This document shows positions 18,764-46,800 of a stretch of DNA of 64,000 bases, one piece after another. Under the pieces are notes generated by a model. It saw only the letters and a program-made list of their open reading frames with translations. It did not search any database and was not told the DNA's origin. The position numbers and the translations under genes were made by a program. The DNA is taken from positions 225,517 through 289,516 of the forward strand of contig JAFXPE010000032.1 of the NCBI GenBank assembly GCA_017528205.1. Reading direction: 5' to 3'. Origin of the DNA: Alphaproteobacteria bacterium. GTDB lineage: Bacteria; Pseudomonadota; Alphaproteobacteria; RF32; CAG-239. Numbering within the stretch: position 1 is the first letter of the stretch; every line of letters begins with the position of its first letter.

Positions 18764-18804
18764 CGTATTTTCCTATAACACAGGTTAAAACTGAAATCAT
18801 ATCA

Positions 18805-25240: not shown

Positions 25241-25272
25241 CTAAAACAAGGTAGGAATGTATGGAGGTTATC

Positions 25273-26069: not shown

Positions 26070-26130
26070 AAAATGTAACAAAAATTTAACACACACCGTG
26101 TAAAAATTATGCTATGGTAAAATTAGCGAG
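26070..26130 (+). promoter_or_regulatory. Second copy of the 26-nt TGTAACA element, plus a -10-like TATGCT / TAAAAT, upstream of paralogue B
   Basis: aaaatgtaacaaaaatttaacacacaccgtgtaaaaattatgctatggtaaaatt. Confidence 0.3.
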
Positions 26131-26159
26131 GAATTGTATGGAGGTTATCATGATGGCTA

Positions 26160-31325: not shown

Positions 31326-34300
31326 ATGAAAAAGATAATATATTCCATAGCGGTGTTTTTAACCAGTATCGGTATAACGCGTAATGCATACGCGATGTGG
31401 CCGGATCTCACGCCACTAATTCCGCTTGCACCGCAATTTTGCGCAATGTGCACGCCTTCGGCTGTTATGACGGCGCTTTCCTATGCACAACAGGTAAAAG
31501 CCATTAAAGACGACTTGACCAAGTTTACGGATATGTCGCAATTAAAACAGATGGCGACATCGTACCTTCCGAAAATGGGCGCAACGGCCTTAAACGCTGC
31601 TCGGAAAAAGCCTGCAGCCAAGAAAAAGGTAATTTCTTTTTCGCGCACCATAGAAGAATGTACGGTTGCCGACATTAAAGATCCGAATTCGGTTAAAGAT
31701 GCCTTTATTAAGCTGTTTATGCAATACCCTTCCAAAAAGAACAGCGTGAAAGCCGCTTATGCCGAAATGGGCGAGCAGCTCAAAATGGATACCACGTTAG
31801 AGATGTTTATTACCGCCAAAGAAATGGAAAAAGAGTTGCTGGGCAAAGAGCCGGGCAAAGACATTAAACCTACGGCACAGAATTTGGCTGATTTGGGCAT
31901 CTTAAAGCAAATAGATTTGATTGAAAGTTGCTTGGTAGAAGGCAAAAATTGTGATGTTATCGGCTTGGATGCCTGTGTTGAAAGCAAAAAAGGCAGCAAG
32001 TCTGAAGAAGGCCAAGAAAATGACGAAGATAACGTTTGCTATTGGAACAGCGCTTTGCAGGCAGAAAAGTTTTATGATGCGGTGATGCGTTATAATGAAT
32101 TTTTGGTTTCGATGCATGCGCAATATCAGGCAGTTTTGGGTATCGAAAAATTGGCTAAAATTCGCGAAAAAGGCGATACCGAAAACGATGGCAGCAGCAA
32201 CAATAATAACAACAGTTCGTCGTTACAGATTGTTCCGCAAACTCAAGACTATGCTTCCGGTATAATTTTTGCCGATATGGCTTTTGCCGATATGACTGAC
32301 GCCGATAAACAGGCCGAAGATGATTTGCGCGATTATAACAATGCCTTGTCGACGCATGAAAATGTGTTGGGCGGCGAATTTGAAGAAACCGGCGAAGCTG
32401 CGGGCTATGAAAGCCCTCTGGATGGCAGAGAAGACGATTTGGAAAGCGCTGCCTTATTGGCTGAAGTTCAAGACGACTTAAACAAGGCGATGCGAGTACA
32501 TAATTTGAAGCAATTACTTCCGGATTATCGTCGTGTTTACAAAGATTATAATACTGCCAAAAAGCAACATGAATTGGCTTTGGAAAACGTAGCCATTTCC
32601 GGAGAGTGCATTACCCGTATGCTGGAGCCGTATTATTCCAATGCGGCGGTTGCATGGCACGGAAACGACTGCCGATATTTGGAAAAAGGCAAATTGATTT
32701 GTCACTACAAGCCGGAGCAGACTTTTGATGAGAACAATGCGGAAAATGAAGGCGATTTGAATACGGCATGTCCGGGAGATGAGGGCCATAAATGTTACAT
32801 CATCTCGCTGGATGAGGCGCAAACCAAGGCTAAAGGTATTTCCGGTTATTTGACGACATTGTACGCCAAGGCCAAGGATATGGAAGCGACTGCTGACACG
32901 GATTCGTACATCAACGCTCAAACCGAAGAAGGCAGAGCAGATGCCAATGTTGCGCGCACAACCATTACTTCGGACTTTAATCAGGAAGAAGGCGAAGACA
33001 TTTATGTTGCCGACCGTGACCAAGATGAAAAAGACAACGGCGATAGTCAACTCGGACTTTTGCATCAGGCTGTTTCGCAGGAAGACGGTCATGCCGACGA
33101 TGAATCTTCGGCACACCTTAAAAATCAGCGTCAGGGCGATGAAGAAAAAGAAAATGCTCGCAAAGACGGCATCTTGCGTTGGGTTCTCGGTTCGTTGGCC
33201 GCCAAAGAAGTGGCAATCGACCTGGGTACCGGAGCCGACAATTTCGGCAACCGCAAGGGTAATTTCCCGCTGTGGACGGATCAGAAAATATTTTACGATC
33301 AATACATTGACGGCAAATACGATAACATCAAGGAATATATCGAAACCCTGCCGGTGTCGGAAATTGTGTTGAATATGGCTGGAACTTTCAACGAAATCTA
33401 TCCTTATCAGGATAAGATTAAAAACGGTGTGGTAGTTAAAACTGCCGAGGAGTTACGTACCAAAAACGGCAAAGATATCGCCAAAGCCCAAAATGCTTCA
33501 AAGCCGTTGGGTTCTGACGAAGATGCTTTGATTGAGGCCAAATTGGCGGAAGAAGATGCTTTATTTGCCAATATTACCAATAAATACAACAACGATATTG
33601 CCGCTATCAAAGCGCAAATAGAGCGCAAATACGATGAGCTTGACAGGAATAACGCCGCTTTGGATGAAAAGAATCAAAAGTATAATGAAAACAATTCGGT
33701 GATTAAGGCTGCCGACGCAACCTCTGCTGAAGCCAATGCCGCGGTTGAATATGGCGACAGCTTGTATGCCGACCGCGAATTGACCGAAGATGCACCGCAA
33801 AATACCAAAGATCAGTCCGATCCGGAAGTTATCGGCTTTAAGACCAAAGACAATCGCAATGATGCCGAAAAATCCGAGGCCGTAACCAAAAAGGCCGAAG
33901 CGGCAGATACGGCGGCGGAAGAAGCAAGAGCAAAAGCTTTGGACGAAGAGATAAAAGAACTCAAAAAACAAATAGAAGCCAGACGCATCCAATATGTTAA
34001 AGATTTGAGTGATGCAGAAATTGCCGCGCACGAATCCTTTAAAACATTTTCTGAAGAATTGAAGGCCGCGCGCGTTATCAACAACTCTATCAGCAACAGC
34101 TTAACCGCGATATCTCCGGTGGGGTTGGCGGCACAAGTTGCCGAGTGTGTTCGCACTTATGCAATCAAAGAGGTTGCAGAGGCCAAATCTAAGCTTGATG
34201 CAATGAAAAATAATGGCGAGCTTTACAGTCGGGAATATGCCGAAAAAGTCCACACCATTCACACGGATATGATTGATAAAATCACCGAGATTGATTTGGA

Positions 34301-35807
34301 TGAATTGGCTGAAAGCTGCCCGGTTATTGCCCAATTGCAAGAAATGGCAAAGACTTTCCAAGATAAACAACTGGAAGAAAATCCAAATCAAGAGCCGAGC
34401 GATCCGCTGGATGTGATTACCGAGATTTTGAATATTTTGAACAAAACCTGCGATGATGTGGAATGCAAAGAATCCGACAATGAATATTTTGTGGGTGCAA
34501 TCGGCTTGCCTCGTGATATGAAGGCTCCGAACCAAGCCACGGAATTTGCCTCGATTCCGCTGCGTGAAATCTTCCACTTTGATGTGTATGATTACAACAA
34601 TTTGGCGAAATATTACGACGGCGACATCAACGATGTTAAGAGCAATTTGGATTTATATACCAGCGCGGTTAACGTTTTGGAATACTTAAACAGCGATGCT
34701 CGCAACGGCGAATACGGTTCAACCGTTCCGGAAATCTGGCTCAAGATTTTACAACGCCATGCGTTTGTACAAAAGGAGTTTGATTTGGTTGACTTGCTGA
34801 GCGGTACGGAAGATATCACCAACAGCACTCGCAAAGCGCTGTCACGTTCCGGCGTGTTCCCGTGCCGTGTAGGTTCGCACATTGTAGATGTTTCGCTCGA
34901 TTTGGATTATATGGTTGATGATACCAAAGATGCAAACAAATACTATGACCTTCCGACTTGCCAAGGTTTGATAATCAAAGAGGTGGACGGTAAGCGTGTG
35001 GTATTTGATGAAGAAGTCGGCGGCGGCAACTTGAACCTCGATCCTCCGGGATTTACCGGCAACGTTGTTCGCGCCAGCGAGCTCGGCAACATTTTAGCCT
35101 ATACGCCGGACAAAGACGCGTTAATCAAAGCTAAGTTGCAGAATCCGGGATTGACCATGGAAGATGTTAACGCTTTGCCGCACAGATTGACCTTTAATGC
35201 CAATTTGATGCGCGCGGTCAAGACTATTGTCGAAACCGAAGATGTGGGCAAAGAAGGACACGAGGCTGAAGATTCACTGTTCTATCTGGCCAGCCGCGTA
35301 ATGTTGGAACGCAACCAGTTCGGTGATTATTTGGATCAGCTCGAAAATGAATCCATTAAAGCCGATGAGTTGCAAAAATTTGAAAAGCAAATTTACGACA
35401 TTCGCACCAGCCTTTTGGAAGTGTTTGCGGATACCGGTTTTGAATTGGGTGAAGATTTCGACTTAACCGATGAAGAGGACTACGCTCAGGCTGAAAGTAC
35501 CTTGAACAGCCAAAAAGATATTTATGTGAACCAATCCATAAATAAACTGGGACAAGTCAAGGGAACTACGCAAATGGTGGCGGATAAACTCAGCAAATTG
35601 CTGACCAAAATAAGCATCCTCAGCTTAGACAGCGATGAAGTTGTGGCCATTACCGGTGAAGAAACCGAAAGCGAGCTAAGAGAAAAAATTGACGAGAGCA
35701 AGGCCAACAACGCGGTGGGTGAGGAATATACCAAAGAAAAAGAAAAAGAAACCGAGCGTCGCTTAGAGCGCTATCGTCGCCCATATTGCGCGGTTTATCC
35801 TAAATAA
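31326..35807 (+). CDS. Giant (1493 aa) secreted, highly acidic protein
   Basis: The signal is MKKIIYSIAVFLTSIGITRNAYA. It is hydrophilic and D/E-rich throughout, with coiled-coil stretches and several Cys pairs. No TM segments were seen, so it is not a VirB6 homologue. Confidence 0.45.
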   Translation: MKKIIYSIAVFLTSIGITRNAYAMWPDLTPLIPLAPQFCAMCTPSAVMTALSYAQQVKAIKDDLTKFTDMSQLKQMATSYLPKMGATALNAARKKPAAKKKVISFSRTIEECTVADIKDPNSVKDAFIKLFMQYPSKKNSVKAAYAEMGEQLKMDTTLEMFITAKEMEKELLGKEPGKDIKPTAQNLADLGILKQIDLIESCLVEGKNCDVIGLDACVESKKGSKSEEGQENDEDNVCYWNSALQAEKFYDAVMRYNEFLVSMHAQYQAVLGIEKLAKIREKGDTENDGSSNNNNNSSSLQIVPQTQDYASGIIFADMAFADMTDADKQAEDDLRDYNNALSTHENVLGGEFEETGEAAGYESPLDGREDDLESAALLAEVQDDLNKAMRVHNLKQLLPDYRRVYKDYNTAKKQHELALENVAISGECITRMLEPYYSNAAVAWHGNDCRYLEKGKLICHYKPEQTFDENNAENEGDLNTACPGDEGHKCYIISLDEAQTKAKGISGYLTTLYAKAKDMEATADTDSYINAQTEEGRADANVARTTITSDFNQEEGEDIYVADRDQDEKDNGDSQLGLLHQAVSQEDGHADDESSAHLKNQRQGDEEKENARKDGILRWVLGSLAAKEVAIDLGTGADNFGNRKGNFPLWTDQKIFYDQYIDGKYDNIKEYIETLPVSEIVLNMAGTFNEIYPYQDKIKNGVVVKTAEELRTKNGKDIAKAQNASKPLGSDEDALIEAKLAEEDALFANITNKYNNDIAAIKAQIERKYDELDRNNAALDEKNQKYNENNSVIKAADATSAEANAAVEYGDSLYADRELTEDAPQNTKDQSDPEVIGFKTKDNRNDAEKSEAVTKKAEAADTAAEEARAKALDEEIKELKKQIEARRIQYVKDLSDAEIAAHESFKTFSEELKAARVINNSISNSLTAISPVGLAAQVAECVRTYAIKEVAEAKSKLDAMKNNGELYSREYAEKVHTIHTDMIDKITEIDLDELAESCPVIAQLQEMAKTFQDKQLEENPNQEPSDPLDVITEILNILNKTCDDVECKESDNEYFVGAIGLPRDMKAPNQATEFASIPLREIFHFDVYDYNNLAKYYDGDINDVKSNLDLYTSAVNVLEYLNSDARNGEYGSTVPEIWLKILQRHAFVQKEFDLVDLLSGTEDITNSTRKALSRSGVFPCRVGSHIVDVSLDLDYMVDDTKDANKYYDLPTCQGLIIKEVDGKRVVFDEEVGGGNLNLDPPGFTGNVVRASELGNILAYTPDKDALIKAKLQNPGLTMEDVNALPHRLTFNANLMRAVKTIVETEDVGKEGHEAEDSLFYLASRVMLERNQFGDYLDQLENESIKADELQKFEKQIYDIRTSLLEVFADTGFELGEDFDLTDEEDYAQAESTLNSQKDIYVNQSINKLGQVKGTTQMVADKLSKLLTKISILSLDSDEVVAITGEETESELREKIDESKANNAVGEEYTKEKEKETERRLERYRRPYCAVYPK

Positions 35808-35821: not shown

Positions 35822-36574
35822 GTGGCACAGTTAGGCGATGGAACAAAAAAGATATTGTTAGCGGGACAATCACCGGTAAAACAGGCAGCATATCAGCCTC
35901 ATTTTATCAGCGACGCCAAACAAGATAGCTATTCGGGCAAGGAAGTTTATTTCCGTTGGCTTTCGAGGTTGGTTGTGTTATGTGCGATTGTTTCGCTGAC
36001 ATTCTTTTTGTGTTCGACTATGGTTATCTTCCGCTTGGCTCCGGAGATTGTGGTTGAACCGCTTTTAATTATCAATCAGAGTGATTCCGAAAGCATGGCG
36101 CGTTATGAGCCGATAACTGAGCGTATGCCGTCACTTCGCCAGTTGACCGAAATGTTTATCAAACAATATATAATCATGCGCAACACGGTCATCAATGACG
36201 CTCAGGAAATGCGCACCCGCTGGGGACCGGGCGGCATTGTTCATTATATGTCGGCTCCGGATGTTTATGCTGATTTTGTGGGACAAAATTCGCAATCGAT
36301 AAATAAAATGTTTGACAATGATTATTCCAGCGAAACGCGCATAGACGAGATTGGCAAAGAAAGTGAAACCACACCGGCGTGGACGGTTAAATTTACGGTG
36401 TTCAACCTGTCAAAAAAACGCAGTTCTGAGGGTTCGCTGACCTTAAAAACCAAGCGCTACAAGGTTTCCATAACACCGCGTTTTTATCAACAAAGAAGAA
36501 TATTCCGGCCGCGTTTGATAAATCCGCTGGGGTTTACGGTGGTTAAATATAACCAGAGCGAAATAAGTGAATAG
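35822..36574 (+). CDS. virB8: VirB8-like bitopic T4SS protein, copy 1
   Basis: It begins with a GTG start. It has a cytoplasmic N-terminus, a single TM (LSRLVVLCAIVSLTFFLCSTMVIF) and a periplasmic NTF2-like domain ending ...RPRLINPLGFTVVKYNQ, matching the conserved VirB8 NP(L/F)GF.V..Y motif. Confidence 0.6.
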   Translation: MAQLGDGTKKILLAGQSPVKQAAYQPHFISDAKQDSYSGKEVYFRWLSRLVVLCAIVSLTFFLCSTMVIFRLAPEIVVEPLLIINQSDSESMARYEPITERMPSLRQLTEMFIKQYIIMRNTVINDAQEMRTRWGPGGIVHYMSAPDVYADFVGQNSQSINKMFDNDYSSETRIDEIGKESETTPAWTVKFTVFNLSKKRSSEGSLTLKTKRYKVSITPRFYQQRRIFRPRLINPLGFTVVKYNQSEISE

Positions 36575-36722: not shown

Positions 36723-36911
36723 ATGTATAAAAAATTTCTAATTCTGGCGATATTGCTGATTTTATCGGCTTGCAGTCTGTTCGGTTCGTATTATGAACCG
36801 GAAGCGGTCGGTATCGGTAAAGACGTGAATGAGCTTAAGCTTTCGCCGTGTGCTTGCATGCAGGTTGAAGTGATTAAAAATGTTCCCGATTGGTTTTGGG
36901 AAACAATTTAA
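36723..36911 (+). CDS. Small lipoprotein (VirB7-like candidate)
   Basis: Length is 62 aa. The signal peptide MYKKFLILAILLILSAC has a lipobox LSAC. The RBS is aagagag. Confidence 0.45.
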   Translation: MYKKFLILAILLILSACSLFGSYYEPEAVGIGKDVNELKLSPCACMQVEVIKNVPDWFWETI

Positions 36912-36927: not shown

Positions 36928-37674
36928 ATGGCGGATCAGTTAGGTACAAACAACACACAGCAACGTCTTCTCGCCTCGGGGCAAAAGCGTCAGGCGGTGC
37001 ACGCTGCCACCACGCATAACATAAATCGCAGTGAAGACAGCTTTGTTGTTAATGCCAGCGAAAAGAGATATTTGTGGACCGCCCGCGCGTTTGCGGTGGT
37101 TACGGCGATAAGCATCTGTTGCAATTTGGTGTTGATATTGACAATTGCCAACATTTTGCCTCTGTATCGTGTGGAGCCGTATTTGCTGACCTTGTCCAAC
37201 AAAGAAGAGCAAGTGTATCGCATTGAACCGTACAGCCGTGATATGGAAGCCAAAAAGTCTATTACGGAAACCTTTATTCGCCAGTATTTGCTTTTAAGAA
37301 CAACCTTGTTGCCGGATATCGAAGAGATGGAATCGCGCTGGCAAGAAGGCGGCGATTTGCAAGAAATGTCTTCACCGATGGTGTATCAGGACTTTATCAA
37401 GAACACCGGCGTAAAGTTGATGCAACGCATGAAACAAGACGGCTTAACCAGCAATGTGAAGATAATTACGGTAAACGAAATAGAAGAAGCGGTTTGGCAG
37501 GTGGAATATAGTGTTGATTATTATTTACCGTCATCATATGAGCCGAAAACGCTCAGATACAGAGCAAGTATGCGAATTCAATATATTCAGCAACGTGTTC
37601 AATTTAAAGAAAGATTGAAAAATCCGGTCGGATTTAAGGTTGTTTCATACAACGTCAAACAAATAAAAGACTAA
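36928..37674 (+). CDS. virB8: VirB8-like bitopic T4SS protein, copy 2
   Basis: It is collinear with copy 1 (FIRQYLLLRTTLLPDIEEMESRWQEGGDLQEMSSPMVYQDFI versus FIKQYIIMRNTVINDAQEMRTRWGPGGIVHYMSAPDVYADFV). The C-terminus reads ...NPVGFKVVSYNVKQ. Confidence 0.6.
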   Translation: MADQLGTNNTQQRLLASGQKRQAVHAATTHNINRSEDSFVVNASEKRYLWTARAFAVVTAISICCNLVLILTIANILPLYRVEPYLLTLSNKEEQVYRIEPYSRDMEAKKSITETFIRQYLLLRTTLLPDIEEMESRWQEGGDLQEMSSPMVYQDFIKNTGVKLMQRMKQDGLTSNVKIITVNEIEEAVWQVEYSVDYYLPSSYEPKTLRYRASMRIQYIQQRVQFKERLKNPVGFKVVSYNVKQIKD

Positions 37675-37689: not shown

Positions 37690-39306
37690 ATGAGAATGAG
37701 CATAAAAAAACTGATGTTAATAATGGTCGGAATGTTGTTGTCCGGCAATGCTTTTGCAGACTTAACAACAGGTGAAACCGCCGCATTGGATCAATCGGCG
37801 GACCAATCTCAGGGAAATTATCAGCCGATGAATTTAGGCTATGCCGGTTTCAACTCGCTCGGCATGATTCAAGAAGCGTGGCAAGATCCTTTGCAAAACT
37901 TGGGCGAAGGGCAGTCCAAGCCGGCTTATTCCAAATACTATTGGACACCGGATTTGGTTTTGCCGGTTCGGGTGCGCGAAGGTATGATTACCATGATTAA
38001 TTTTCCGGAATGGGAACTGATTGAGCGAGTTCAGGTCGGTGATTCCCGTTCTTTCTCAGGTTCGGTACAACAACCTAACACGGTTTTGCTTTATCCGGCT
38101 CCGCAAGCCGCAGTTGGTGTAGATTCCAACGTGGTGGTTTTCGGACGTTCCGGCAACAAATATGTCTTTTATGTCAGAAGCGAAGGCGTGAACACCGAAA
38201 GATTGACCAATGCCATTATTGATATTGATGTAGTCGGCGACAACGGCTCATCGGGAGGTAGTCCCAGGGGCCGCGTGGGGACGGTAGGCGGTGTCGGCGC
38301 TTCAGGCAATTTGAATGGGGGTAACAATACTCTTTATTCATCGTATACTCAGCGCTTTTTGAAAGAAGATTGGTTGAAGAGTATTCCGCTGGATCCGAGC
38401 AAGTTTCGCTTTGATATTGAAATTTATGTGCCTAATCCGGACGATGTGATTATTGCGCCGGAACGTGTTTGGCATGATGATATCTTTACTTATATAGATT
38501 TGGGCGAAAAGGCCTTAAATATGGTTCAACGCCCGATTGTTACGCTGATTATCGAACGTTCGGAAACGCCGGTCGGCTTCAGAACCAAAGGCCCGAACAA
38601 CAGACTTATCATTGTTGAGGGCATCGGTGATATGGTAATGCGTAGCGGCAAACGTATGGTGTGCTTAAAGATGCGTCGTTCCGATGATGAGGGAATGCAG
38701 TATGTTACTTATGCCGATACCAGCAACGAATGGGATGTCGGACCGGCAATTCCTGGCGGTGCCAACGGTAACGGTGCCGGCGGAGTCGGTGCATACGGCG
38801 CCGGAGCAGCAGGTGGTGCGGCCGGTGCGCCGATTCCGGACGGAAACGGCGGAGTTTATGTGCCGAACGGTGCCAGCGCCATGATGGGCGGTGCCGGAGC
38901 TATGGGCGGCGTGGTCGGTAATTCTATGGGCGGATACGCCGGAAATATCGATTGCAGCGGTATGTCTCCTTTAAGCAGCGCCGGTGCAAATATGGCCAAT
39001 CCGTATCCGAAATATAAGTACGGCAGCGGTTTTGAAGGTCAAACCGACGACCATATATCCATAGAACTCGGAACCGACGGCAACGTGAATAATTTGGAAG
39101 CGCTGTGGAAAGATTTATCCGGTCGTTATTCTTCGATTTTGGGCGAATACGAACCATTCTATTCCGTTGATGCTCCGGCAGACGGACAAGGCAAAGAACT
39201 GTTCCATTTGCGGGTAGGCCCGATAAAGAACTTGAATACGGGAGATTCCGTATGCAGCAAGTTGGGGCGCAACGGAGTGTTCTGCAGCGTGGTGAGGATG
39301 CAATAA
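37690..39306 (+). CDS. virB9: VirB9/CagX-like outer-membrane core protein carrying Gly-rich insertions and a C-terminal extension
   Basis: It has a signal peptide. The N-terminal domain reads ...VLLYPAPQ...NKYVFYVRSEG, which is VirB9-like. The C-terminal domain reads ...DDIFTYIDLGEKALNMVQRPIVTLIIERSE...RLIIVEGIGDMVMRSGKRMVCLK. A roughly 150-aa G/A/N-rich region follows, and the terminal ...LFHLRVGPIKNLNTGDSVCSKLGRNGVFCSVVRM is SPOR-like. At 538 aa it is about twice the canonical VirB9 length. Confidence 0.6.
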   Translation: MRMSIKKLMLIMVGMLLSGNAFADLTTGETAALDQSADQSQGNYQPMNLGYAGFNSLGMIQEAWQDPLQNLGEGQSKPAYSKYYWTPDLVLPVRVREGMITMINFPEWELIERVQVGDSRSFSGSVQQPNTVLLYPAPQAAVGVDSNVVVFGRSGNKYVFYVRSEGVNTERLTNAIIDIDVVGDNGSSGGSPRGRVGTVGGVGASGNLNGGNNTLYSSYTQRFLKEDWLKSIPLDPSKFRFDIEIYVPNPDDVIIAPERVWHDDIFTYIDLGEKALNMVQRPIVTLIIERSETPVGFRTKGPNNRLIIVEGIGDMVMRSGKRMVCLKMRRSDDEGMQYVTYADTSNEWDVGPAIPGGANGNGAGGVGAYGAGAAGGAAGAPIPDGNGGVYVPNGASAMMGGAGAMGGVVGNSMGGYAGNIDCSGMSPLSSAGANMANPYPKYKYGSGFEGQTDDHISIELGTDGNVNNLEALWKDLSGRYSSILGEYEPFYSVDAPADGQGKELFHLRVGPIKNLNTGDSVCSKLGRNGVFCSVVRMQ

Positions 39307-39309: not shown

Positions 39310-42300
39310 ATGAGTAAAGAGCCGTTAACACATTCGGACAGATATGTTCGCAAAACCAATAAAGTGATTCTGATTATCGGAATTGTTACTTTATGTGTGT
39401 TTTTGTTCGGCTTAATGCTGCTCGGAACGGAAGCTCCGGAAGAGCAGCAACACTATGAATTTGAGCATTCCATAGAAGAAGAAAGTCAGGTCGGTATAAG
39501 TGCCGAGAGCAATACTTCGGCCGAAATAGAATTTGAAAACACCGAAGATACGGAGCCACCGATAACGCTTTCGCCGGCGGAGCTGAATATGGGGCAGGTT
39601 GTTTTGGGCAACGAGGCCAGCAACGTTTTAACCATCGGCACCAATGGCAAACGCGAAATTAAAATACTTTCGGTTGAGCTTGAAGATGCTCCGTTTGACG
39701 GTTTTCATTATGAAACCAACTGCAAAGACAGAGAATTGCGCGGAAAATTGACCTGTTTGGTGACGATGAACTGGTTGCCGACGGTTGCCGCCAATGTTCA
39801 AAGCAATTTCAAAATTGTGTGGCACGAAACCAACGTTTCGGATAACAGTGCCAAGCATAGCGAAGTAACGGTTCGCGGTAGCGCCGTAACCAAGGATAAC
39901 TGCACGGTTTGCGATACCGGCGCGGTGAGCGGCACGACGGAAAACGGTGTGGACGGCGCAAAAGGCAAAATGCGCTATGCCATCGGGCCGGACGGCAAGG
40001 TTATCGGCTGGATAGATGAAAACGGCGTGGTTCATGATTTTGACGGCAATGAAATCGGCCGCGTCAACGCCGACGGTATGGTTGTCGATAAAGATGGCAA
40101 TATAATAGGTGTTGCGGCCAACGGACGTGTGATTGTCGATGAAAACGGCAACGTTATCGGTTATGTAGATGAAAACGGTGTGGCCTATGATTTGGAAGGC
40201 AATGTTATCGGCACGGTTTTGCCGGATGGTACGGTCGTTGATGCCAATGGTAATGTTATCGGCAAAGCGGTGGAATACGGCTATGTTTATGATGACGACG
40301 GTAATATTATCGGCAGAGTTTTGCCGGACGGCACGGTTGTCGATATGGACGGCAAAGTCATCGGGCATGTGGATAAAAACGGGAATGTCGTAGATGAAAA
40401 CGGCAATATTATCGGTCATGTGGCCAAAGCCGGTGAAGTTATATTAGATGATAACGGCGACGTGGTCGGTGTGGTTATGCCAAACGGCAATGTAGTTAAC
40501 GAAGACGGAGAAATTGTCGGAAAAATGAATGCCGACGGTTCGGTTGATGATGTTGAAATCATCGGTAAACGCGGCGCGGCGGCGCAAATGGTTTATGACG
40601 AAAACGGCAATATTATCGGCTATGTCGATGAAAACGGCGTGGTGCGCGATTTTAACGGCAATGTTATCGGCCACGTTGATGAAAACGGCAATGTTATTGA
40701 CGCCAACGGCAAAGTTATCGGTCATGTGAGTGACGAATGGCGCGATTTGGCATTGGATGAAAATGGTAATGTTATCGGTTATATTGATGAAAACGGTTTG
40801 GTACACGATAACGACGGTAATATTATCGGGTATGTTGATGCCAATGGTAATATAATCGGTAATAAACCGAAAATCACCACTTCGGGCAAAGCCAGTAAAC
40901 ATGCTTTGGCGTTGGATAAAGACGGCAACGTTATCGGTTGGATAGATGAAAACGGTGTGGTACGCGATTTTGACGGCAATATTATCGGTCATGTTGACGA
41001 AAACGGCAACATAGTTGATGCCAACGGCAATATCATCGGTCATCGCGGAAAAGCCGCTAATTTGGCCTTTGATAAAAACGGAAAATTAATCGGTATCATT
41101 GATGAAAACGGTGTGGTACGCGACTTTGACGGCAATGTTATCGGCCATGTTGATGAAAACGGCAACATAGTTGACGCCAACGGCAATATCATCGGTCATC
41201 GCGGAGATCCGGCAACGGTTTTGGCTATGGATGAAAACGGCAATGTTATCGGCTGGATAGATGAAAACGGCGTGGTGCGTGATTTTGATGGTAATATTAT
41301 CGGTCATGTTGACGAAAACGGCAACATAGTTGATGCCAACGGCAATATCATCGGTCATCGCGGAAAACCGGCCAAATTGGCATTGGATAAAGATGGTAAT
41401 GTCATCGGCTATATCGATGAAAACGGCGTGGTGCGAGATTTTAACGGCAATGTTATCGGCCATGTTGATGAAAACGGCAACATAGTGGATGCCAACGGCA
41501 ATATCATCGGTCGACAGGGTGGTGCCGCCAATTTGATATTTGATGAAAACGGCAAGTTAATAGGTTATGTTGATCCAAACGGTGTGGCTCGTGATTTTGA
41601 TGGTAATGTCATAGGCTATGTTGATGAAAACGGTAATGTGGTTCGCAAGGATTATTCCGGCGAAATCATCGGCAAGGTAGGCAATCGCGCAGATTTGGCC
41701 GTCGATGAAAACGGCAATGTTATCGGTTGGATAGATGAAAACGGCGTAGTGCGTGACTTTAACGGCAATATTATCGGCCACGTTGATGAAAACGGCAATA
41801 TTATAGATGCCAACGGCAATATCATCGGTCATCGCGGCGATTCCGCACTATTGGCTCTGGACGAAGACGGTAATGTCATCGGTTACATTGATAAAAACGG
41901 CATTGTGCGCAACAGCAGCAATCAAATTATCGGCATTGCCGACGCCAACGGCAATATTCGTACCTTCGGTCGCCGTATTATCGGCAGAACTTTGGATAAA
42001 AACCTGTTACCGATAACGCCGGAAGGAAGATTGTTGGGCGTGTTAAACAATCGCGGCGAAATTATCAATCAGCAGAAAGTTGTCGGCAAAATGCGTCCGG
42101 ACGGCATTGTGACGGATATTTCCGGCGCCAAAGTTTTAGCCAAAGGCGTGCGGCAGGGATATATCGTAAACTGGGGCTGTGATTTCAGCTTAAAATTAGA
42201 CCGAGACGGAGTTGTCCGTCGTGACGGCGCCGAAACCGGCTATCGGGTATACGCCGACGGCACGGTTTGGACACCGGAAGGCAAGTTTGCCGGTCAGGCC

Positions 42301-43881
42301 ATGCCAACCGGAAGCGTTTATGACGACAAATGCTCTTACATCGGCGAAGCCAACGCCGACGGCTATGTGCGCGATCTTAATAATCAGGAAGTCGGGTGCT
42401 TGAATCCTGACGGTACGGTATTGGATTTGGAAGAGCCGAAAATTAAAGGCCATGTGGTGCGCAAAAAGGCGGTAATATCCAGCCATACTTGGAAAGAATT
42501 GGGAACTTTGGATGCCGGCGGCACCTTGCATGACGGTAAAGGCGCGGTAATCGGCTGTGCCAATTTCTTCAGCGACGTTTATGACGGCGATTCGGCTTAT
42601 TTAGGCTCGGTTTCCACCGCCAAATATGCGTTCGGTTTTAACGGAAAATTGTTGGGAATCTTTGACGAAAACGGTAGTATCAACATTCCGAATGTTCAGG
42701 GAGCGCACGTTATTTTGCATGATTTGGTTGCCGATAAAAACAACAGAATCATCGGCTACGCTTTGCCGGAAGTAAATATTTTGGTTGATGCGCAGGGACG
42801 CAAGCTCGGCCATCTGTTTCCGGACGGCAAAATTTATGATGCCGACGGTATAGTTTTTGATACGTTTAACGGCGGAAATGTCGGCAATTATAACGGAATT
42901 GCCGCCGGTTTCGTACGTCCTAGATATGTGGTGGATGCCGAAGGCCGTAATATCGGTCGGGTAAATTATGATTTGACCGTGTTGGATTATAAGGGCGCGG
43001 TTGTCGGCAAAGTTAATGCCAAAGGGCAAATGTTTGACCAAAAAGGCAGATTGGCGGCGGCAACAGTTCAGCAGGGAGGTGTTCGCGGATATGACGGAAC
43101 ATATTTGGGATATGTGGTGCCAACGGGAGAAGTTGTGGAACAACAAAATGTTGAAGATGCTTTAGGCAAACGCCATCGTCGCGGCTCGATTATGGGACGG
43201 GTTACTCCGGACGGATATGTGCTGAAAGATAAAAAAATTATCGGCGAAGTTTTGCCGCAAAAAGTTATGGTTGATGTGTTCGGGCGCATTGTCGGCATCA
43301 CCAACGATTACGGCGTAGTGATAACCGCCGACAACTCGATGATTTCGACCTTGCTTCCGGGCGGCGGCAACAATAACAACTTTGTTGCCATGCAAACCGG
43401 CATAGTAATTGATTCGTCAGGAGAAATCATCGGTACGGTATGGCCAAACGGTGAATTTGCCGACTTGAAACATGTGGTATCCGGCAGAGTGTTGGCCGAC
43501 GGCAAGGTTATCAGCGGCGACGGACAGTTTTTGGGCGAAGTGCTCAGCGGCGACATTGTTATCGGCAACGATGATAAGGTCAGAGGCATCGTCGGCACCG
43601 ACGGCAAGGTTTATAAGGGCGATACGGTGGTCGGCAAAATACTTACCGACGGCTTGGCGGTGGATATGCAAAACAATATCATCGGCCGTGTATACAGCAT
43701 AGGCAACGCCGTTTTATCAAATTCCGGAGATTATATCGGCAGACTTGCGGCCAACGGAATGGTTATTGCCGATGAAAACAACGAAATAGGCTATATCAAG
43801 AGCAACGGTTCGTTTGTAGATATCGATAAAAACGTATCCGGATACATATTGCCTGAAGTGGCGCGGAATCGGAGGAATTAA
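39310..43881 (+). CDS. Giant (1523 aa) bitopic repeat protein built from about 13-aa D-x-N-G-N-(V/I)-I-G periodic units
   Basis: An N-terminal TM segment (KVILIIGIVTLCVFLFGLMLLG) is followed by dozens of degenerate repeats of type VDENGNVIDANGNIIGH. The gene sits immediately upstream of, and 2 nt from, the VirB10-domain gene. Confidence 0.6.
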   Translation: MSKEPLTHSDRYVRKTNKVILIIGIVTLCVFLFGLMLLGTEAPEEQQHYEFEHSIEEESQVGISAESNTSAEIEFENTEDTEPPITLSPAELNMGQVVLGNEASNVLTIGTNGKREIKILSVELEDAPFDGFHYETNCKDRELRGKLTCLVTMNWLPTVAANVQSNFKIVWHETNVSDNSAKHSEVTVRGSAVTKDNCTVCDTGAVSGTTENGVDGAKGKMRYAIGPDGKVIGWIDENGVVHDFDGNEIGRVNADGMVVDKDGNIIGVAANGRVIVDENGNVIGYVDENGVAYDLEGNVIGTVLPDGTVVDANGNVIGKAVEYGYVYDDDGNIIGRVLPDGTVVDMDGKVIGHVDKNGNVVDENGNIIGHVAKAGEVILDDNGDVVGVVMPNGNVVNEDGEIVGKMNADGSVDDVEIIGKRGAAAQMVYDENGNIIGYVDENGVVRDFNGNVIGHVDENGNVIDANGKVIGHVSDEWRDLALDENGNVIGYIDENGLVHDNDGNIIGYVDANGNIIGNKPKITTSGKASKHALALDKDGNVIGWIDENGVVRDFDGNIIGHVDENGNIVDANGNIIGHRGKAANLAFDKNGKLIGIIDENGVVRDFDGNVIGHVDENGNIVDANGNIIGHRGDPATVLAMDENGNVIGWIDENGVVRDFDGNIIGHVDENGNIVDANGNIIGHRGKPAKLALDKDGNVIGYIDENGVVRDFNGNVIGHVDENGNIVDANGNIIGRQGGAANLIFDENGKLIGYVDPNGVARDFDGNVIGYVDENGNVVRKDYSGEIIGKVGNRADLAVDENGNVIGWIDENGVVRDFNGNIIGHVDENGNIIDANGNIIGHRGDSALLALDEDGNVIGYIDKNGIVRNSSNQIIGIADANGNIRTFGRRIIGRTLDKNLLPITPEGRLLGVLNNRGEIINQQKVVGKMRPDGIVTDISGAKVLAKGVRQGYIVNWGCDFSLKLDRDGVVRRDGAETGYRVYADGTVWTPEGKFAGQAMPTGSVYDDKCSYIGEANADGYVRDLNNQEVGCLNPDGTVLDLEEPKIKGHVVRKKAVISSHTWKELGTLDAGGTLHDGKGAVIGCANFFSDVYDGDSAYLGSVSTAKYAFGFNGKLLGIFDENGSINIPNVQGAHVILHDLVADKNNRIIGYALPEVNILVDAQGRKLGHLFPDGKIYDADGIVFDTFNGGNVGNYNGIAAGFVRPRYVVDAEGRNIGRVNYDLTVLDYKGAVVGKVNAKGQMFDQKGRLAAATVQQGGVRGYDGTYLGYVVPTGEVVEQQNVEDALGKRHRRGSIMGRVTPDGYVLKDKKIIGEVLPQKVMVDVFGRIVGITNDYGVVITADNSMISTLLPGGGNNNNFVAMQTGIVIDSSGEIIGTVWPNGEFADLKHVVSGRVLADGKVISGDGQFLGEVLSGDIVIGNDDKVRGIVGTDGKVYKGDTVVGKILTDGLAVDMQNNIIGRVYSIGNAVLSNSGDYIGRLAANGMVIADENNEIGYIKSNGSFVDIDKNVSGYILPEVARNRRN
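40580..41960 (+). repeat. Array of about 9 tandem in-frame higher-order DNA repeats of roughly 156-165 bp (52-55 aa), several of them near-identical
   Basis: Units of the form ALDKDGNVIGWIDENGVVRDFDGNIIGHVDENGNIVDANGNIIGHRGKAANL recur. Three copies are almost identical at the DNA level (e.g. gatgaaaacggcgtggtgcg(c/t)gattttga(c/t)gg(c/t)aatattatcggtcatgttgacgaaaacggcaacatagttgatgccaacggcaatatcatcggtcatcgcgga). Confidence 0.8.
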
Positions 43882-43883
43882 GT

Positions 43884-46800
43884 ATGTTGCAGATATTGCG
43901 TAAAACATATAAAGCATTGTTGATTATCGGGAGCATGTTCTTGCCGATGTGCGCGAATGCCGCGGAAATTACGGCCATAGACTTTAACGGCAATATCATT
44001 GGACAAGTTATTTCCACCGGTATGGTCATCAGTCCCGACGGCGAAAATATCGGCACCATAACGGCAGACAGTTTGATATTAAACGGCTCGGGTGCGGTAA
44101 TCGGCGGCGTTGTGCCGCAAGGTATTGCCATTGGCATGGATAATCGTTTGCTCGGCAAAATTCACAGCGACGGCATCGTGCGCAGTTTGAGCGGCAGAAC
44201 CGTGGGCACGGCTTTGCCGAACGGTTTGGTGATTGATTCTTCGGCCGAAGTTATCGGTGCGGTTTTGTATCCGGGAATCATTTATTCCTCAGCCGGAGAG
44301 GCCATCGGGCGTTTGACCGGCGGCGGTGAATATACCAAGTTGGAAGGCCAACGCGTGGGCTTTGTTTCGGCTAACGGCTACGCTTATCGTAAATCGGGCG
44401 ACGATTATGTTTTGGACGGCCGTTTGATGTCTTCCAAAATGGTAATTTCGGTAGAGGGCAAGTTTTTGGGCAGTATTGCCCCAACCGGACAGATTATAGA
44501 TTTTGAAGGCAAACCGGTGGGGAAAATACACGCCAACGGTTTTGCCTATAACGAAAACGGAAAAATTATCGGCAGCGTGGTTGCCACGGCTTATGCTTTT
44601 GACCAAGCCGGCAAATATTTGGGTGTTGTCGGATATAACGGCGAAGTTAAACAAGGCGAGCAAGTTGTTGCTATGTATCGTGCCGATGGCAATCTGGTGC
44701 GGCCAAACGGCGATGTTGTGGGCTTTGCCGTAGATATTGCGGCCACAGCCAATGACAATAATGGAAATTACCTCGGCTATGTTGTTCCGCAGGGCAATAT
44801 CGTTCGGGGCAAAGAAATCGTCGGCAAAATCGGGGCTAAAGGCATTATTTACGACGCAAAAGGCAATAAAATCGGCGAGTTGGTTAAAACCGGACCGGTT
44901 TATGACGCACTGGCCAGACTGAAAGGCCAAAGTATGAAAAACGGCCGCTTTGTTACGTTGGGCGGCAATGTTGTCGGACACATCAGAGGCAAATACGCCT
45001 TTGACAGCAACGGAACTTTAACCGGCGGCGTGTCGGAAGGTATGATTGCCATAGACAATACCAATAAATCCTTGGGAATGAGCAACATCGACTCCGGCGT
45101 TGCCAGAGGTTCAAATACAGCCAAAATATCCCCGTTTGGTTATCTGTTTGGCAATGACGGAAAAGTTATCGGTGCCGGATATCCGATGTCGGCTGTTTAC
45201 GGCAACAACGGCGTGTTGTATTCTTATATCAATCCGAATGGTGAATTATATCGTCAAGCAACGGACGTTACCCTGTCGGAAGCCGGTGTCGCTTATAGCA
45301 AAAACGGTTATCTCGGAGAAATGGTAAATCCACTGTATGCTTTGGACTTTATCGGTAATCCGCTGGGGCAGTTTGCCAACGGAAACATTGTTCTCAATGC
45401 CGGAAAGATTGCCTATAAAATTTTGCCGGACGGCTACGCGGTAGAGACAAGCGAAGCGCTGTCGCCGATGTTAACCCCGATTAAAGGTTTCGGCGGCAAT
45501 CGGCGTATAGCCCTCAATATCGGCGGCGATTTAATCGGTTATGCCAGCGAAACGGGCGAAATAGACGGCCTCAACGGCAATACTTTTGGCCGAATAATGT
45601 ATAATGAATACATTGCGGATAACAAAAAATCCGTGGTCGGCAAATTGATACCGTTTGCCACGGTGGTCAACGAAAAATGCTCGGTAATCGGTGTGGTTAA
45701 CGGTCGCGGCGATATCGTCAATAATCGCGATGTTATTATCGGACGCCTGCTGCCTAACGGACAGGCCATATCTGATGTCGGCAGTTACATCGGTTATGCC
45801 GTGTTTGAACAGGTGCTGATTGATAATGACGGCAATTTTGCCGGCACGGTTCACGATGCTCAGGGCAACGATATGAATTCCAAGAATATTGGTTGCGTCA
45901 ATCGTAAAGGAATTATTGAAGATGACGAACATCGTCAACGTTACGGTGTGATTACGGCGGCGCCGACGATTGATTTTGAAAACAATTTGTTCGGCTATGT
46001 TTTGGCCAACGGACAGGTTGTGAGCAGAAATGATCAGATTTTAGGTTATATGCAGCCAAACGGCAACGTTGTTTCCAAATCCAAAAAAGTATTGGGTAAC
46101 GTTATGCGTTATCAGGTGGCATACACGGATAATAACCGCTTTTTGGGAATGATTGGAGCCAACGGCGAGGTTATCAGCGAAAAAGGCGAACTTGCCGGTC
46201 AGGTTAATTTTGACGGCAGCATTGTAAAAGACGGCGAAGTTATCGGTTACGCCTTGTATGATTTCTATGTTTATGACGAAAATTTTGTAACATACGGTTA
46301 TTTAACCAAAGACGGCACGGTTTTAAGTATGGTCGGCAGTCGTTTGGGGCAAATAGACCGGGGTTTTGTGGTTGACCGCAACGGTCAGATTATTGCCCGC
46401 GGCAATCGTGATTATATTGTTCGCGATATCAATCGCAATGCCGTCGGTGAATTGCGTATAGACGGCACGGTGGTCGATTTTGAGGGGCAGAATGTGGGTT
46501 ATTTATCCGAAGGCGGAGTTATCAGAGATCCGAACGGCGATGAAATAGCTCAGGCAACTCCGTATCAATATTATGTTGCCATCCAAAAAGCGGGTGAAGT
46601 CAGCGAAAAAATCGAGCCAAAAGATCGCCGCAAAGTAAAGATAAATGAAGCGGAAAAAACGGAAGATGTTGCCGCCACCGAAAAGAAAGTACGTCGCCAA
46701 AAGCTGGGTAATCGTGTTGTGGGCATAGCCCTTAGTCCGGACGGCGATATTATCGGTAATATTTATGATGATGACACGGTGCGCACCGACGACGGTACAC

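What the first reader, a model, noticed from the sequence alone, without database searches (positions are those of the whole stretch)
40580..41960. Near-identical in-frame tandem DNA repeats of roughly 160 bp inside the giant gene: a likely recombination-driven size or antigenic variation cassette
At least 9 consecutive units of 52-55 codons are present. Three of them (about 40890-41050, 41230-41390 and 41690-41850) are almost identical at the nucleotide level over more than 100 bp. This is exactly the substrate for RecA-mediated unequal crossover, which would add or delete whole units without disturbing the reading frame. H. pylori uses the same mechanism in the CagY middle repeat region to tune T4SS activity under immune pressure. 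A functionally analogous variable module in an unrelated T4SS would be notable.
Basis: partly seen in the sequence, partly recalled or inferred. Interest (0 to 1): 0.7.

Follow-up and report, generated by a model that had tools for sequence, protein, structure and literature searches.

The report
Expandable beta-hairpin repeats in split VirB10
The tandem repeat is real and sits in the membrane-anchored half of an oversized, split VirB10 secretion-system protein of an uncultured rumen bacterium; whole units are gained, lost and exchanged over evolutionary time, but in this species the number is fixed at nine, so it is not a fast CagY-like switch.

Summary
The array is real: nine in-frame units of 52-54 codons at 40591-42009. 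Each unit is three 17-residue beta-hairpins of the beta-flower/DUF3659 type. "Near-identical" is overstated. The best pair is 90% identical (94% over 120 nt), most pairs are 60-85%, and the longest exact repeat is 75 nt.

The gene is the N-terminal half (membrane anchor, Ig-like domain, repeats) of a repeat-expanded VirB10. It is split here and fused to the TrbI domain in distant relatives.

Recombination between units is supported:
- Across related species, protein length is about 1050 + 52.5n residues, with n = 2-13.
- Four of 19 sister-species clusters hold strain variants that differ by 52, 53 or 84 residues.
- One relative carries a perfect 309-nt two-unit duplication.
- A conspecific strain carries a 76-nt patch copied from the U5/U6 junction into the U3/U4 junction.

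Fast, immune-driven switching is not supported. Six complete copies from different rumen samples, in two lineages up to 7% divergent, all have nine units. dN/dS is 0.04-0.08, and synonymous divergence between units is 0.3-0.75.

Verdict: an evolutionarily expandable length module, convergent in architecture with CagY but not homologous to its repeats. Its function is untested.

The parts
39310..43881 (+). Giant gene (1523 residues). It is the N-terminal half of a split, repeat-expanded VirB10: cytoplasmic tail, one membrane helix (about residues 19-39), acidic linker, Ig-like domain (about residues 80-190), then 17-residue beta-hairpin repeats to the C-terminus.
   Evidence: ORF, translation. 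Pfam Bflower_2 2e-87, Bflower 9.5e-48, DUF3659 4.6e-37. It aligns collinearly with residues 1-1576 of fused 2290-residue VirB10 proteins, which sit in the same operon slot.
39979..40590 (+). Four older, diverged three-hairpin units (residues 224-427). Their number is conserved in all orthologues.
   Evidence: Unit-HMM hits of 19-60 bits at the same positions in every orthologue.
40591..42009 (+). The nine-unit array (residues 428-900). U1 40591-40749, U2 40750-40908, U3 40909-41064, U4 41065-41223, U5 41224-41379, U6 41380-41535, U7 41536-41697, U8 41698-41853, U9 41854-42009.
   Evidence: U1, U2 and U9 are positional orthologues across species. U3-U6 and U8 resemble each other most and are lineage-specific copies of one ancestral unit; U7 belongs to the same variable block but has diverged.
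40978..41052 (+). Longest exact direct repeat, copy 1 (75 nt, in U3). Copy 2 is at 41293-41367 in U5.
   Evidence: A run of 25 identical third-codon positions has P about 1e-4 given the overall U3U4/U5U6 divergence.
41293..41367 (+). Longest exact direct repeat, copy 2 (75 nt, in U5).
41129..41171 (+). 43-nt exact repeat, copy 1 (U4). Copy 2 is at 41444-41486 (U6).
41053..41128 (+). U3/U4 junction. In conspecific strain L036 this 76-nt segment was replaced by the sequence of the U5/U6 junction (gene-conversion recipient).
   Evidence: It has 20 mismatches to its own position but only 4 to 41368-41443. It is bounded by the 75-nt and 43-nt exact repeats. The third lineage, L046, keeps the window-like protein sequence here, so the L036 state is derived.
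41368..41443 (+). U5/U6 junction, the donor sequence of the conversion patch seen in strain L036.
42010..43881 (+). C-terminal part of about 620 residues made of degenerate hairpin repeats. Its length is constant (621-630 residues) in orthologues, and it ends in the conserved ...LPEVARNRRN.
43884..48071 (+). VirB10 proper (1395 residues): signal-peptide-like N-terminus, about 1000 residues of diverged beta-hairpin repeats, a TrbI/VirB10 domain (residues 1100-1303) and a Pro/Gly/Ser-rich tail. It starts 3 nt after the giant gene's stop codon.
   Evidence: Pfam TrbI 2.4e-31 and Bflower_2 1.8e-46. PDB sequence hits to ComB10 5e-22 and CagY 7e-5. 27% identical to the giant protein across the repeats. 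No exact repeats of 16 nt or more.
37690..39306 (+). VirB9/CagX homologue (538 residues).
   Evidence: Pfam CagX 1e-12.
36928..37674 (+). VirB8, second copy.
   Evidence: Pfam VirB8 6e-21.
36723..36911 (+). 62-residue lipoprotein (lipobox LSAC), VirB7-like.
   Evidence: Gene called, translation.
35822..36574 (+). VirB8, first copy.
   Evidence: Pfam VirB8 5e-13.
48082..49056 (+). VirB11 ATPase (324 residues from the ATG at 48082).
   Evidence: NCBIfam VirB11 1e-43. The exact product is found on 11 contigs.

Best explanation
The array is the expandable middle segment of a long beta-hairpin repeat region of the beta-flower/DUF3659 type. It lies in the inner-membrane-anchored N-terminal half of a split, repeat-expanded VirB10. 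That protein belongs to a VirB-type (P-type) type IV secretion system of an uncultured rumen/gut alphaproteobacterium.

One unit is three 17-residue hairpins (52-54 residues). Units are duplicated, deleted and patch-converted by homologous exchange or replication slippage between the in-frame DNA repeats. As a result, protein length is quantised (about 1050 + 52.5n residues).

This happens on the timescale of strain and species divergence, under strong purifying selection on the unit sequence. In the window's species the number is fixed at nine. The likely role of unit number, which is inferred and not shown, is to set the length or reach of the VirB10-associated scaffold between or beyond the membranes. 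It is not a rapid on/off or antigenic switch.

Shown: the repeat anatomy, the homology to fused VirB10 proteins, unit-number variation among species and among some conspecific strains, one conversion event in this species, constancy of nine units here, and purifying selection. Inferred: the recombination pathway (RecA-dependent or not) and the functional meaning of length.
For: Anatomy.

Protein family and fold: Pfam beta-flower and DUF3659 hits lie far above their cut-offs. AlphaFold2 gives an all-beta hairpin model with pLDDT 77 for the array, and pLDDT 93 / pTM 0.71 for two units.

Split VirB10: distant relatives have the operon VirB8-small ORF-VirB8-VirB9-[2290 residues with TM + Ig + repeats + TrbI]-VirB11. 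The giant protein aligns collinearly to residues 1-1576 of that protein, and the window's VirB10 aligns to residues 892-2245.

Quantised length: unit counts of 2-13 explain orthologue lengths of 1128-1728 residues. The remainder clusters near 1050 residues for most orthologues (1023-1062); a few poorly parsed arrays fall outside that range.

Strain-level unit indels: 53, 52 and 84 residues inside the array between proteins 97-99% identical. A further 1314/1367 pair was seen by length only. The indels were confirmed on DNA as 156-nt and 159-nt events.

Recent duplication: a perfect 309-nt tandem copy (317-nt exact repeat) in L021.

Exchange in this species: a 76-nt patch in strain L036 equals the paralogous U5/U6 junction and is bounded by the 75-nt and 43-nt exact repeats. 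The U3/U5 identity is mosaic.

Stability and constraint: six complete copies from different samples all have 1523 residues, including a lineage with 316-324 differences in 4572 nt and no indel. dN/dS is 0.04-0.08. pS between units is 0.30-0.75. 15 of 19 sister clusters show no unit-sized length variation across many samples.
Against: - No read-level or long-read data were available, so minority length variants inside a population cannot be excluded.
- Short-read assemblies break in or at the array (L003, L036, L038, L039, L049). In the 98.5%-identical lineage that carries the conversion patch, both available contigs stop between U5 and U6, so its unit number is unknown. Complete copies are therefore biased towards arrays with less-identical units.
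- The perfect duplication in L021 could be an assembly artefact.
- No evidence bears on where the repeat region sits in the cell or what its length does.
Confidence: 0.72

Rival explanations
1. One reading: an actively switching, CagY-like cassette. Frequent RecA-mediated unequal crossover between near-identical units changes protein size or antigenicity within populations, to tune T4SS activity or evade host immunity.
For: - All 69 exact repeats are in frame.
- Unit indels occur between 97-99% identical strains in four sister clusters.
- There is a conversion patch in a conspecific strain.
- The only two SNPs between two otherwise identical 15.6-kb loci lie in the array.
- Assemblies often break in the array, which could hide heterogeneity.
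- The host protein is VirB10-derived, like CagY.
Against: - Units are 60-90% identical, with pS 0.3-0.75.
- There are 69 exact repeats averaging 21 nt, against 235-302 averaging 35-48 nt (with flanking repeats up to 156 bp) in the CagY middle repeat region (PMC2194252).
- Nine units are present in all six complete copies across two lineages up to 7% divergent and several independent studies.
- dN/dS in the array is 0.04, and the 26 amino-acid differences are mostly conservative.
- Most sister species are invariant over dozens of contigs.
- There is no evidence that the organism faces adaptive immunity or that the repeats are surface-exposed.
Confidence: 0.1
2. An old, effectively frozen structural repeat. 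The units are ancient duplications kept similar only by protein-level constraint, with no ongoing recombination and no functional meaning to the number.
For: Synonymous divergence between units is high. dN/dS is low. Unit number is fixed in this species. U1, U2 and U9 are positional orthologues across species.
Against: - Codon identity at identical residues is 0.5-0.84 against 0.42 expected.
- The 75-nt identical tract is mosaic.
- A derived conversion patch exists in L036.
- Strain-level indels occur in sister species.
- The internal units are more alike within a genome than to units of other species.
- Unit number ranges from 2 to 13 among close relatives.
Confidence: 0.12
3. Allelic import rather than intragenic events. 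Unit-number and sequence differences between strains arise mainly by homologous recombination with divergent alleles from other strains, with the array acting only as a crossover site.
For: In the sister-species pair L004/L005, the 156-nt indel sits at the 3' edge of a 1.4-kb tract with pS 0.31, against 0.01-0.02 in the flanks, and dN/dS 0.09. Synonymous divergence is elevated in the repeat region between the window's lineages.
Against: The L036 patch matches a paralogous segment of the same gene (4 mismatches in 76 nt), which points to an intragenic donor. The L021 perfect tandem duplication is intragenic. The two mechanisms are not exclusive.
Confidence: 0.06

Closest known systems
Helicobacter pylori CagY (VirB10 orthologue with a 5' repeat region and a middle repeat region)
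   Same: - Both are very large VirB10-family components of a T4SS whose extra mass is a tandem-repeat region N-terminal to the VirB10/TrbI domain.
- In both, all direct DNA repeats are in frame, so deletions and duplications keep the ORF (PMC2194252).
- In both, units are modular and their number varies (PMC2581425).
- The VirB10 C-terminal domain next door is detectably homologous to CagY's (E 7e-5).
   Different: - The repeats are all-beta 17-residue hairpins, whereas CagY has alpha-helical motifs A and B (PMC2581425). There is no sequence match to any CagY chain.
- The protein is split from the TrbI domain.
- The DNA repeats are about four times fewer and about half as long as in CagY.
- No size variation was seen in six copies of this species, whereas CagY varies within single hosts (PMC2194252, PMC5954226).
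- Selection is purifying, and no link to immunity is known.
Beta-flower / DUF3659 repeat proteins (Pfam clan CL0395: PF21784, PF21785, PF12396; Durairaj et al. 2023, PMC10584680)
   Same: Strong Pfam matches. The [DNEQ]xxG motif at hairpin tips (DENG, DANG, DKDG) is present. The predicted structure is short antiparallel beta-hairpins.
   Different: The described beta-flowers are single small barrels of about 96-116 residues with 4-6 petals. Here about 75 hairpins run in tandem over about 1300 residues, with a three-hairpin higher-order DNA repeat, inside a T4SS component. The library searched holds no paper linking beta-flower repeats to T4SS.
RHS/YD-repeat proteins
   Same: Pfam RHS_repeat (4e-26) and TIGR01643 YD repeat (3e-15) score above their cut-offs. 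The best, weak, Foldseek hits are Rhs shells.
   Different: No individual RHS stretch is significant. There is no Rhs core or toxin domain. TM-scores are at most 0.13. The similarity is only at the level of generic beta-hairpin repeats.
Size-variable tandem-repeat surface proteins of bacteria (for example streptococcal alpha C/Rib and M proteins); comparison from general knowledge
   Same: In-frame tandem units whose number changes by recombination or slippage.
   Different: Those units are typically nearly identical at the DNA level and vary among isolates of one clone. Here the units are 60-90% identical and the number is fixed within the species sampled.

Membership tests
CagY-type repeat-variable VirB10 | The repeat region belongs to a VirB10-family protein of a T4SS. 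| tested here: met
   The giant gene lies between virB9 and virB10. It is collinear with the N-terminal 1576 residues of fused 2290-residue VirB10 proteins in the same operon slot. In this window it is a separate ORF without a TrbI domain.
CagY-type repeat-variable VirB10 | The repeats are homologous to the CagY middle-repeat-region motifs (alpha-helical A/B modules). | tested here: not met
   AlphaFold2 models are all-beta. phmmer against all PDB chains, including CagY, gives no hit for the giant protein. CagY repeats are alpha-helical (PMC2581425).
CagY-type repeat-variable VirB10 | An extraordinary density of exact direct DNA repeats of at least 16 nt, all in frame. | tested here: inconclusive
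   There are 69 repeats, all in frame, with mean 21 nt and maximum 75 nt. The CagY middle repeat region has 235-302, with means of 35-48 nt and flanking repeats up to 156 bp (PMC2194252). The feature is the same in kind and much weaker in degree.
CagY-type repeat-variable VirB10 | Size variants among closely related isolates or within one host. | tested here: not met
   Six complete conspecific copies, at 0-7% divergence, all have 1523 residues. Variants do exist in 4 of 19 sister-species clusters. Within-sample heterogeneity could not be tested.
CagY-type repeat-variable VirB10 | Repeat rearrangement changes T4SS function under immune pressure. | not testable with these tools
   This requires experiments.
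Beta-flower / DUF3659 repeats (Pfam CL0395) | The Pfam models score above their gathering thresholds. | tested here: met
   Bflower_2 288.9 bits (cut-off 38), Bflower 161.8 (cut-off 25), DUF3659 126.1 (cut-off 24.8).
Beta-flower / DUF3659 repeats (Pfam CL0395) | Beta-hairpin petals with a [DNEQ]xxG tip motif. | tested here: met
   The motif recurs every 17 residues. Strand pairs are predicted at that period. The motif definition comes from PMC10584680.
Beta-flower / DUF3659 repeats (Pfam CL0395) | A closed shallow barrel with 4-, 5- or 6-fold symmetry. | not testable with these tools
The two-unit model is compact (pTM 0.71) but matches no solved fold. The AFDB library was unavailable.
RHS/YD-repeat toxins | An Rhs core with a C-terminal toxin domain. 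| tested here: not met
   No such domains appear in Pfam or NCBIfam. Only summed weak repeat hits were found.
VirB10/TrbI | A C-terminal TrbI beta-barrel domain. | tested here: not met
   It is absent from the giant protein and present in the next gene (PF03743 2.4e-31; ComB10 5e-22).
Contingency-type tandem-repeat surface proteins | Units nearly identical at the DNA level (more than about 95%). | tested here: not met
   The best pair is 90% identical and the median about 70%.

The most novel reading that the evidence does not exclude
Rumen and gut alphaproteobacteria carry an undescribed class of T4SS. In it, VirB10 is enlarged, and here split, by about 1300-2000 residues of beta-flower hairpins. 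The number of three-hairpin units (2-13) would act as an evolvable length ruler or adhesive stalk for the secretion machine, and intragenic conversion would shuffle the inter-unit linkers. This would be a convergent, all-beta counterpart of CagY, one that is recombinationally active in some lineages, including the conspecific lineage whose array could not be assembled.
Probability: 0.25. Interest if true: 0.6.

Novelty: new variant of a known kind. Interest (0 to 1): 0.42.

Why it matters
CagY has been treated as the unusual VirB10 orthologue with a large recombining repeat region (PMC5954226). This window shows a whole clade of uncultured rumen, horse-gut and human-gut alphaproteobacteria whose VirB10 is enlarged by an unrelated, all-beta repeat. 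Unit number in that repeat clearly evolves by in-frame recombination. That gives a second, independent system for asking why T4SS outer scaffolds tolerate or exploit modular length change. It also gives the recently named beta-flower/DUF3659 repeat its first concrete cellular context. For this particular locus the practical message is more sober: the array is stable in the species sampled and is not a demonstrated variation cassette.

Tried and rejected
- The window protein's own 90% cluster could not be listed: the exact sequence is not in that collection, and it did not appear among the homologue hits. Conspecific copies were reached instead through exact look-ups of the neighbouring VirB9, VirB7-like and VirB11 proteins.
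- The first VirB11 look-up, using the GTG start, found nothing. The ATG at 48082 worked.
- Literature searches for beta-flower, DUF3659, the Pfam accessions, and VirB10 repeats in rumen Alphaproteobacteria found no paper describing this system.
- The test of whether differing sites carry a paralogous base gave 130 of 155 against 97-111 in shifted registers. I rate this as suggestive only. Shared amino acids and two-fold codons inflate the true-register count.
- I considered that the strain indels might be alignment artefacts. This is rejected, because the lengths differ by exactly one unit and the DNA alignments show single 156-nt and 159-nt gaps.
- I considered positive selection in the divergence hot spots. 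This is rejected, because dN/dS is 0.04-0.11.
- A global-pair MAFFT run on 11-kb loci timed out and was rerun with --auto.
Full report

Tandem Repeats Finder reports an array at 40600-41910 with period 156 nt, 8.3 copies and 73% matches. It also finds a 315-nt period with 76% matches and a 51-nt sub-period. The array lies inside one ORF, 39310-43881 (+), of 1523 residues.

Splitting the protein at its G-x-x-[IV]-[IV]-G motif shows a 17-residue beta-hairpin repeat running from residue 229 almost to the C-terminus. Between residues 428 and 900 there is a higher-order unit of three hairpins, 52-54 residues long, present nine times. The unit coordinates are 40591-40749, 40750-40908, 40909-41064, 41065-41223, 41224-41379, 41380-41535, 41536-41697, 41698-41853 and 41854-42009.

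The gene contains 69 maximal exact direct repeats of at least 16 nt, and every one is spaced by a multiple of three. Ten other 5-kb stretches of the window contain 0-4. The repeat is therefore real and far beyond chance.

The claim of near-identity is overstated:
- Codon-aligned nucleotide identity is 90% for the best pair (U3-U5), 79-85% among U3, U4, U5, U6 and U8, 61-78% for pairs that involve U1, U2 or U7, and about 50% for U9.
- The longest exact matches are 75 nt (40978-41052 = 41293-41367), 43 nt (41129-41171 = 41444-41486) and 32 nt.
- The synonymous difference is pS 0.33 for the best pair and 0.4-0.75 for most. pN is 0.03-0.3.
- Codons at identical residues match in 50-84% of cases, against 42% expected from the operon's codon usage. 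So the units keep a DNA-level signal of common descent or exchange, but they are not recent copies.

**2. What is the gene?**

Pfam gives Bflower_2 (2e-87, 14 stretches), Bflower (9.5e-48) and DUF3659 (4.6e-37). It also gives weaker summed RHS/YD-repeat scores and a sub-threshold Ig-like (ASH) hit at residues 86-169.

The neighbouring genes, in order, are:
- VirB4 (22764-25193);
- several ORFs with no family hit;
- VirB8 (35822-36574);
- a 62-residue lipoprotein with lipobox LSAC (36723-36911);
- a second VirB8 (36928-37674);
- VirB9/CagX (37690-39306);
- the giant gene;
- a 1395-residue VirB10 (43884-48071), which starts 3 nt after the giant gene's stop codon;
- VirB11 (48082-49056).

The VirB10 itself has a signal-peptide-like N-terminus and about 1000 residues of diverged hairpin repeats. 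It is 27% identical to the giant protein. It also has a C-terminal TrbI domain that matches ComB10 (5e-22) and the CagY C-terminus (7e-5) in the PDB.

The closest homologues of the giant protein are 51-59% identical proteins of 1067-1581 residues. All come from uncultured Alphaproteobacteria MAGs. More distant hits of 2000-2600 residues have the same repeats fused to a TrbI domain. In one such genome the operon reads VirB8-small ORF-VirB8-VirB9-[2290 residues]-VirB11. The giant protein aligns collinearly with residues 1-1576 of that protein, including the N-terminal tail, membrane helix and Ig-like domain. The window's VirB10 aligns with residues 892-2245.

The giant gene is therefore the membrane-anchored N-terminal half of a split, repeat-expanded VirB10. 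The split is conserved: all orthologues end in ...NRRN.

Orthologous loci come from MAGs of sheep, goat, deer and cattle rumen, horse faeces and human (Hadza) gut. Conspecific contigs come from bovine and ruminant metagenomes.

**3. Structure**

AlphaFold2 on residues 415-905, with 35 orthologues as the alignment, gives an all-beta model with strand pairs at the 17-residue period. Mean pLDDT is 77 and pTM is 0.33, so the parts are locally confident but their overall arrangement is undefined. Two units (U5-U6, 104 residues) give pLDDT 93 and pTM 0.71.

I could not determine whether the folding unit is one unit, two units (the 309-333-nt spacing recurs in several species) or a continuous sheet.

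**4. Does the array change?**

*(a) Among species.* I ran a unit HMM on orthologues. Every one has the same N-terminal region of about 223 residues, four old units, a variable run of units starting at about residue 428, and a constant C-terminal part of 621-630 residues. Unit number runs from 2 to 13. For most orthologues, protein length minus 52.5n falls between 1023 and 1062 residues; a few with poorly parsed arrays fall outside that range. U1, U2 and U9 find their best match in the equivalent unit of other species. U3-U6 and U8 match each other best (81-90% at the protein level, against 75-87% to other species). They are lineage-specific copies of one ancestral internal unit.

*(b) Among strains of sister species.* In 19 clusters at 90% identity, most full-length members share one length. 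Examples are 1581 residues in 14 listed members on more than 100 contigs, 1370 in 12 members and 1373 in 10 members. Four clusters contain two lengths: 1576/1629, 1310/1258, 1286/1370 and 1314/1367. I aligned the first three pairs. They are 97-99% identical, with a single gap of 53, 52 or 84 residues inside the array. The fourth pair was not aligned. On DNA these are single 159-nt and 156-nt gaps. In the 1310/1258 pair, the gap lies at the 3' end of a 1.4-kb tract with pS 0.31. The flanks have pS 0.01-0.02, and dN/dS is 0.09. This points to an imported or old allele with a crossover in the array.

*(c) A horse-gut MAG.* L021 has a perfect 309-nt (103-residue, two-unit) tandem duplication.

*(d) The window's own species.*
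- The exact protein is on four contigs.
- Through the exact VirB11 product I recovered six complete copies from different samples. Three (L045, the window's own source contig, L048, and L044 with two SNPs) are identical or nearly identical to the window. Three (L046, L047, L050) belong to a lineage with 316-324 differences in 4572 nt. That lineage differs by 4.6% in the sequenced part of virB9 and by 7.2% in virB10. All six are 1523 residues with no indel.
- Between the two lineages, pS is 0.41 in the array and 0.30 in the old units, but 0.15-0.16 in the rest of the gene. dN/dS is 0.04-0.08 everywhere. Only 26 of 473 array residues differ, mostly V/I, D/E and D/N changes.
- A third lineage is 98.5% identical. 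It is seen as contig L036 from the 5' side and as L049 from the 3' side. It is collinear with the window up to 41348 and again from 41535 onward. Both assemblies stop between U5 and U6.
- In L036, the 76 nt at 41053-41128 (the U3/U4 junction) differ from the window at 20 positions. They differ from the window's U5/U6 junction (41368-41443) at only 4. The patch begins exactly after the 75-nt exact repeat and ends exactly before the 43-nt one. It changes eight residues at once, from KAANLAFDKNGKLIGI to KPAKLALDKDGNVIGY.
- The divergent L046 lineage keeps the window-like junction. The L036 state is therefore derived: a gene conversion from U5/U6 into U3/U4.
- The conversion would create a near-perfect repeat of about 194 nt. 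That plausibly explains why assemblies with k = 141 break there.

**5. Interpretation**

Direct evidence now exists in this species (conversion) and in sister species (unit indels, a fresh duplication).

The proposed tempo and purpose do not hold on present evidence:
- Unit number is fixed across all complete copies of the species.
- Selection is strongly purifying.
- The units are old.
- The density and length of exact repeats are several-fold below those of the CagY middle repeat region (PMC2194252).

The recombination pathway is not known. For CagY itself, size variation did not require RecA (PMC2194252).

The comparison with CagY is best stated as convergence in architecture. In both, a VirB10 is enlarged N-terminally by modular in-frame repeats. 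There is no homology between the repeats: alpha-helical in CagY (PMC2581425), all-beta here.

My preferred functional reading is that unit number sets the length of a VirB10-associated scaffold. This is an inference from the quantised lengths and from the anchor-plus-repeat design. It is not shown.

**6. Caveats**

- All population data come from consensus metagenome assemblies, mostly short-read. Within-sample heterogeneity is invisible.
- Arrays with longer identical tracts tend not to assemble. Contigs end at window 39355, 39801, 40029 and 41348, or start at 41535. The set of complete copies is therefore biased towards stable-looking arrays.
- The two SNPs separating L044/L002 from the window both lie in the array and hit the conserved D and G of the hairpin motif. 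They may be assembly noise.
- The paralogous-base test is confounded and is used only as supporting colour.

**7. Novelty and score**

In-frame tandem repeats with evolving copy number are a known kind of feature. The particular system appears undescribed in the literature I could search. It combines beta-flower/DUF3659 hairpins that enlarge and split VirB10 across a clade of gut and rumen alphaproteobacteria, unit numbers from 2 to 13, and documented conversion.

I class it as a new variant of a known kind, with interest 0.42. It is not low, because the VirB10 context and the family-wide plasticity are real and testable.

Noticed in passing
window 39310-48071; L009 9001-15873: The giant gene and the adjacent virB10 together correspond to a single fused 2290-residue VirB10 (TM + Ig-like domain + hairpin repeats + TrbI) in more distant relatives. 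The split, with the stop and start codons 3 nt apart, is conserved in the whole clade of close orthologues.
   Followed up: yes
window 36723-36911 (+): A 62-residue ORF with a lipoprotein signal (MYKKFLILAILLILSAC...) lies between the two virB8 genes. It is probably a VirB7-like lipoprotein. It is identical on 18 contigs, including more divergent strains.
   Followed up: partly
window 41261 and 41827 (versus L002/L044): The only two differences in more than 15 kb between two samples' contigs both fall in the array. Both change the conserved D (GAT>GTT) and G (GGT>TGT) of the hairpin motif. They could be real variants, conversion footprints or assembly noise.
   Followed up: partly
window 39979-42009 versus L046/L047/L050; L004 8400-9900 versus L005: Synonymous divergence between conspecific lineages is 2-2.5 times higher in the repeat region than in the rest of the gene (pS 0.41 and 0.30 against 0.15), with dN/dS 0.04-0.08. 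A sister species shows the same pattern (pS 0.31 against 0.01-0.02). The cause (inter-unit conversion, allelic import or a mutation hot spot) is not settled.
   Followed up: partly
window 31326-35807 (+); L004 2400-4200: A 1493-residue ORF upstream of the first virB8 has no Pfam or NCBIfam hit. Its orthologue is the second divergence hot spot between two conspecific strains of a sister species.
   Followed up: no
window 25261-25959 and 26114-26875 (+): Two adjacent ORFs of 232 and 253 residues, without family hits, share 17-26-nt exact repeats at a spacing of 876-883 nt. This is a tandem gene duplication just after virB4.
   Followed up: no
window 53412-55778 (+); L044 15418-17697; L049 11785-11995: A 759-788-residue ORF without family hits lies next to rnpA-rpmH. 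It is split into 488 + 262 residues in one sample and is absent altogether in another conspecific lineage, so it is a strain-variable insertion.
   Followed up: no
window 49001-50212 (+): A DUF3137 membrane protein directly follows virB11. No VirD4-like coupling protein was seen in the part of the operon examined.
   Followed up: no
window 16426-18096 (-) and neighbours 10505-20430: A secretin gene (Pfam Secretin, Secretin_N_2) sits within a run of minus-strand ORFs. It suggests a type II secretion or type IV pilus-like cluster upstream of the T4SS.
   Followed up: no
window 6257 and 6665: A 30-nt exact direct repeat at 408-nt spacing. It is the only exact repeat of at least 16 nt in that 5-kb stretch.
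   Followed up: no
L021 gene nt 1720-2345 (JAKSUO010000013, horse faeces MAG): A perfect tandem duplication of a 309-nt two-unit block in the orthologous array. It is either a very recent duplication or an assembly artefact.
   Followed up: partly
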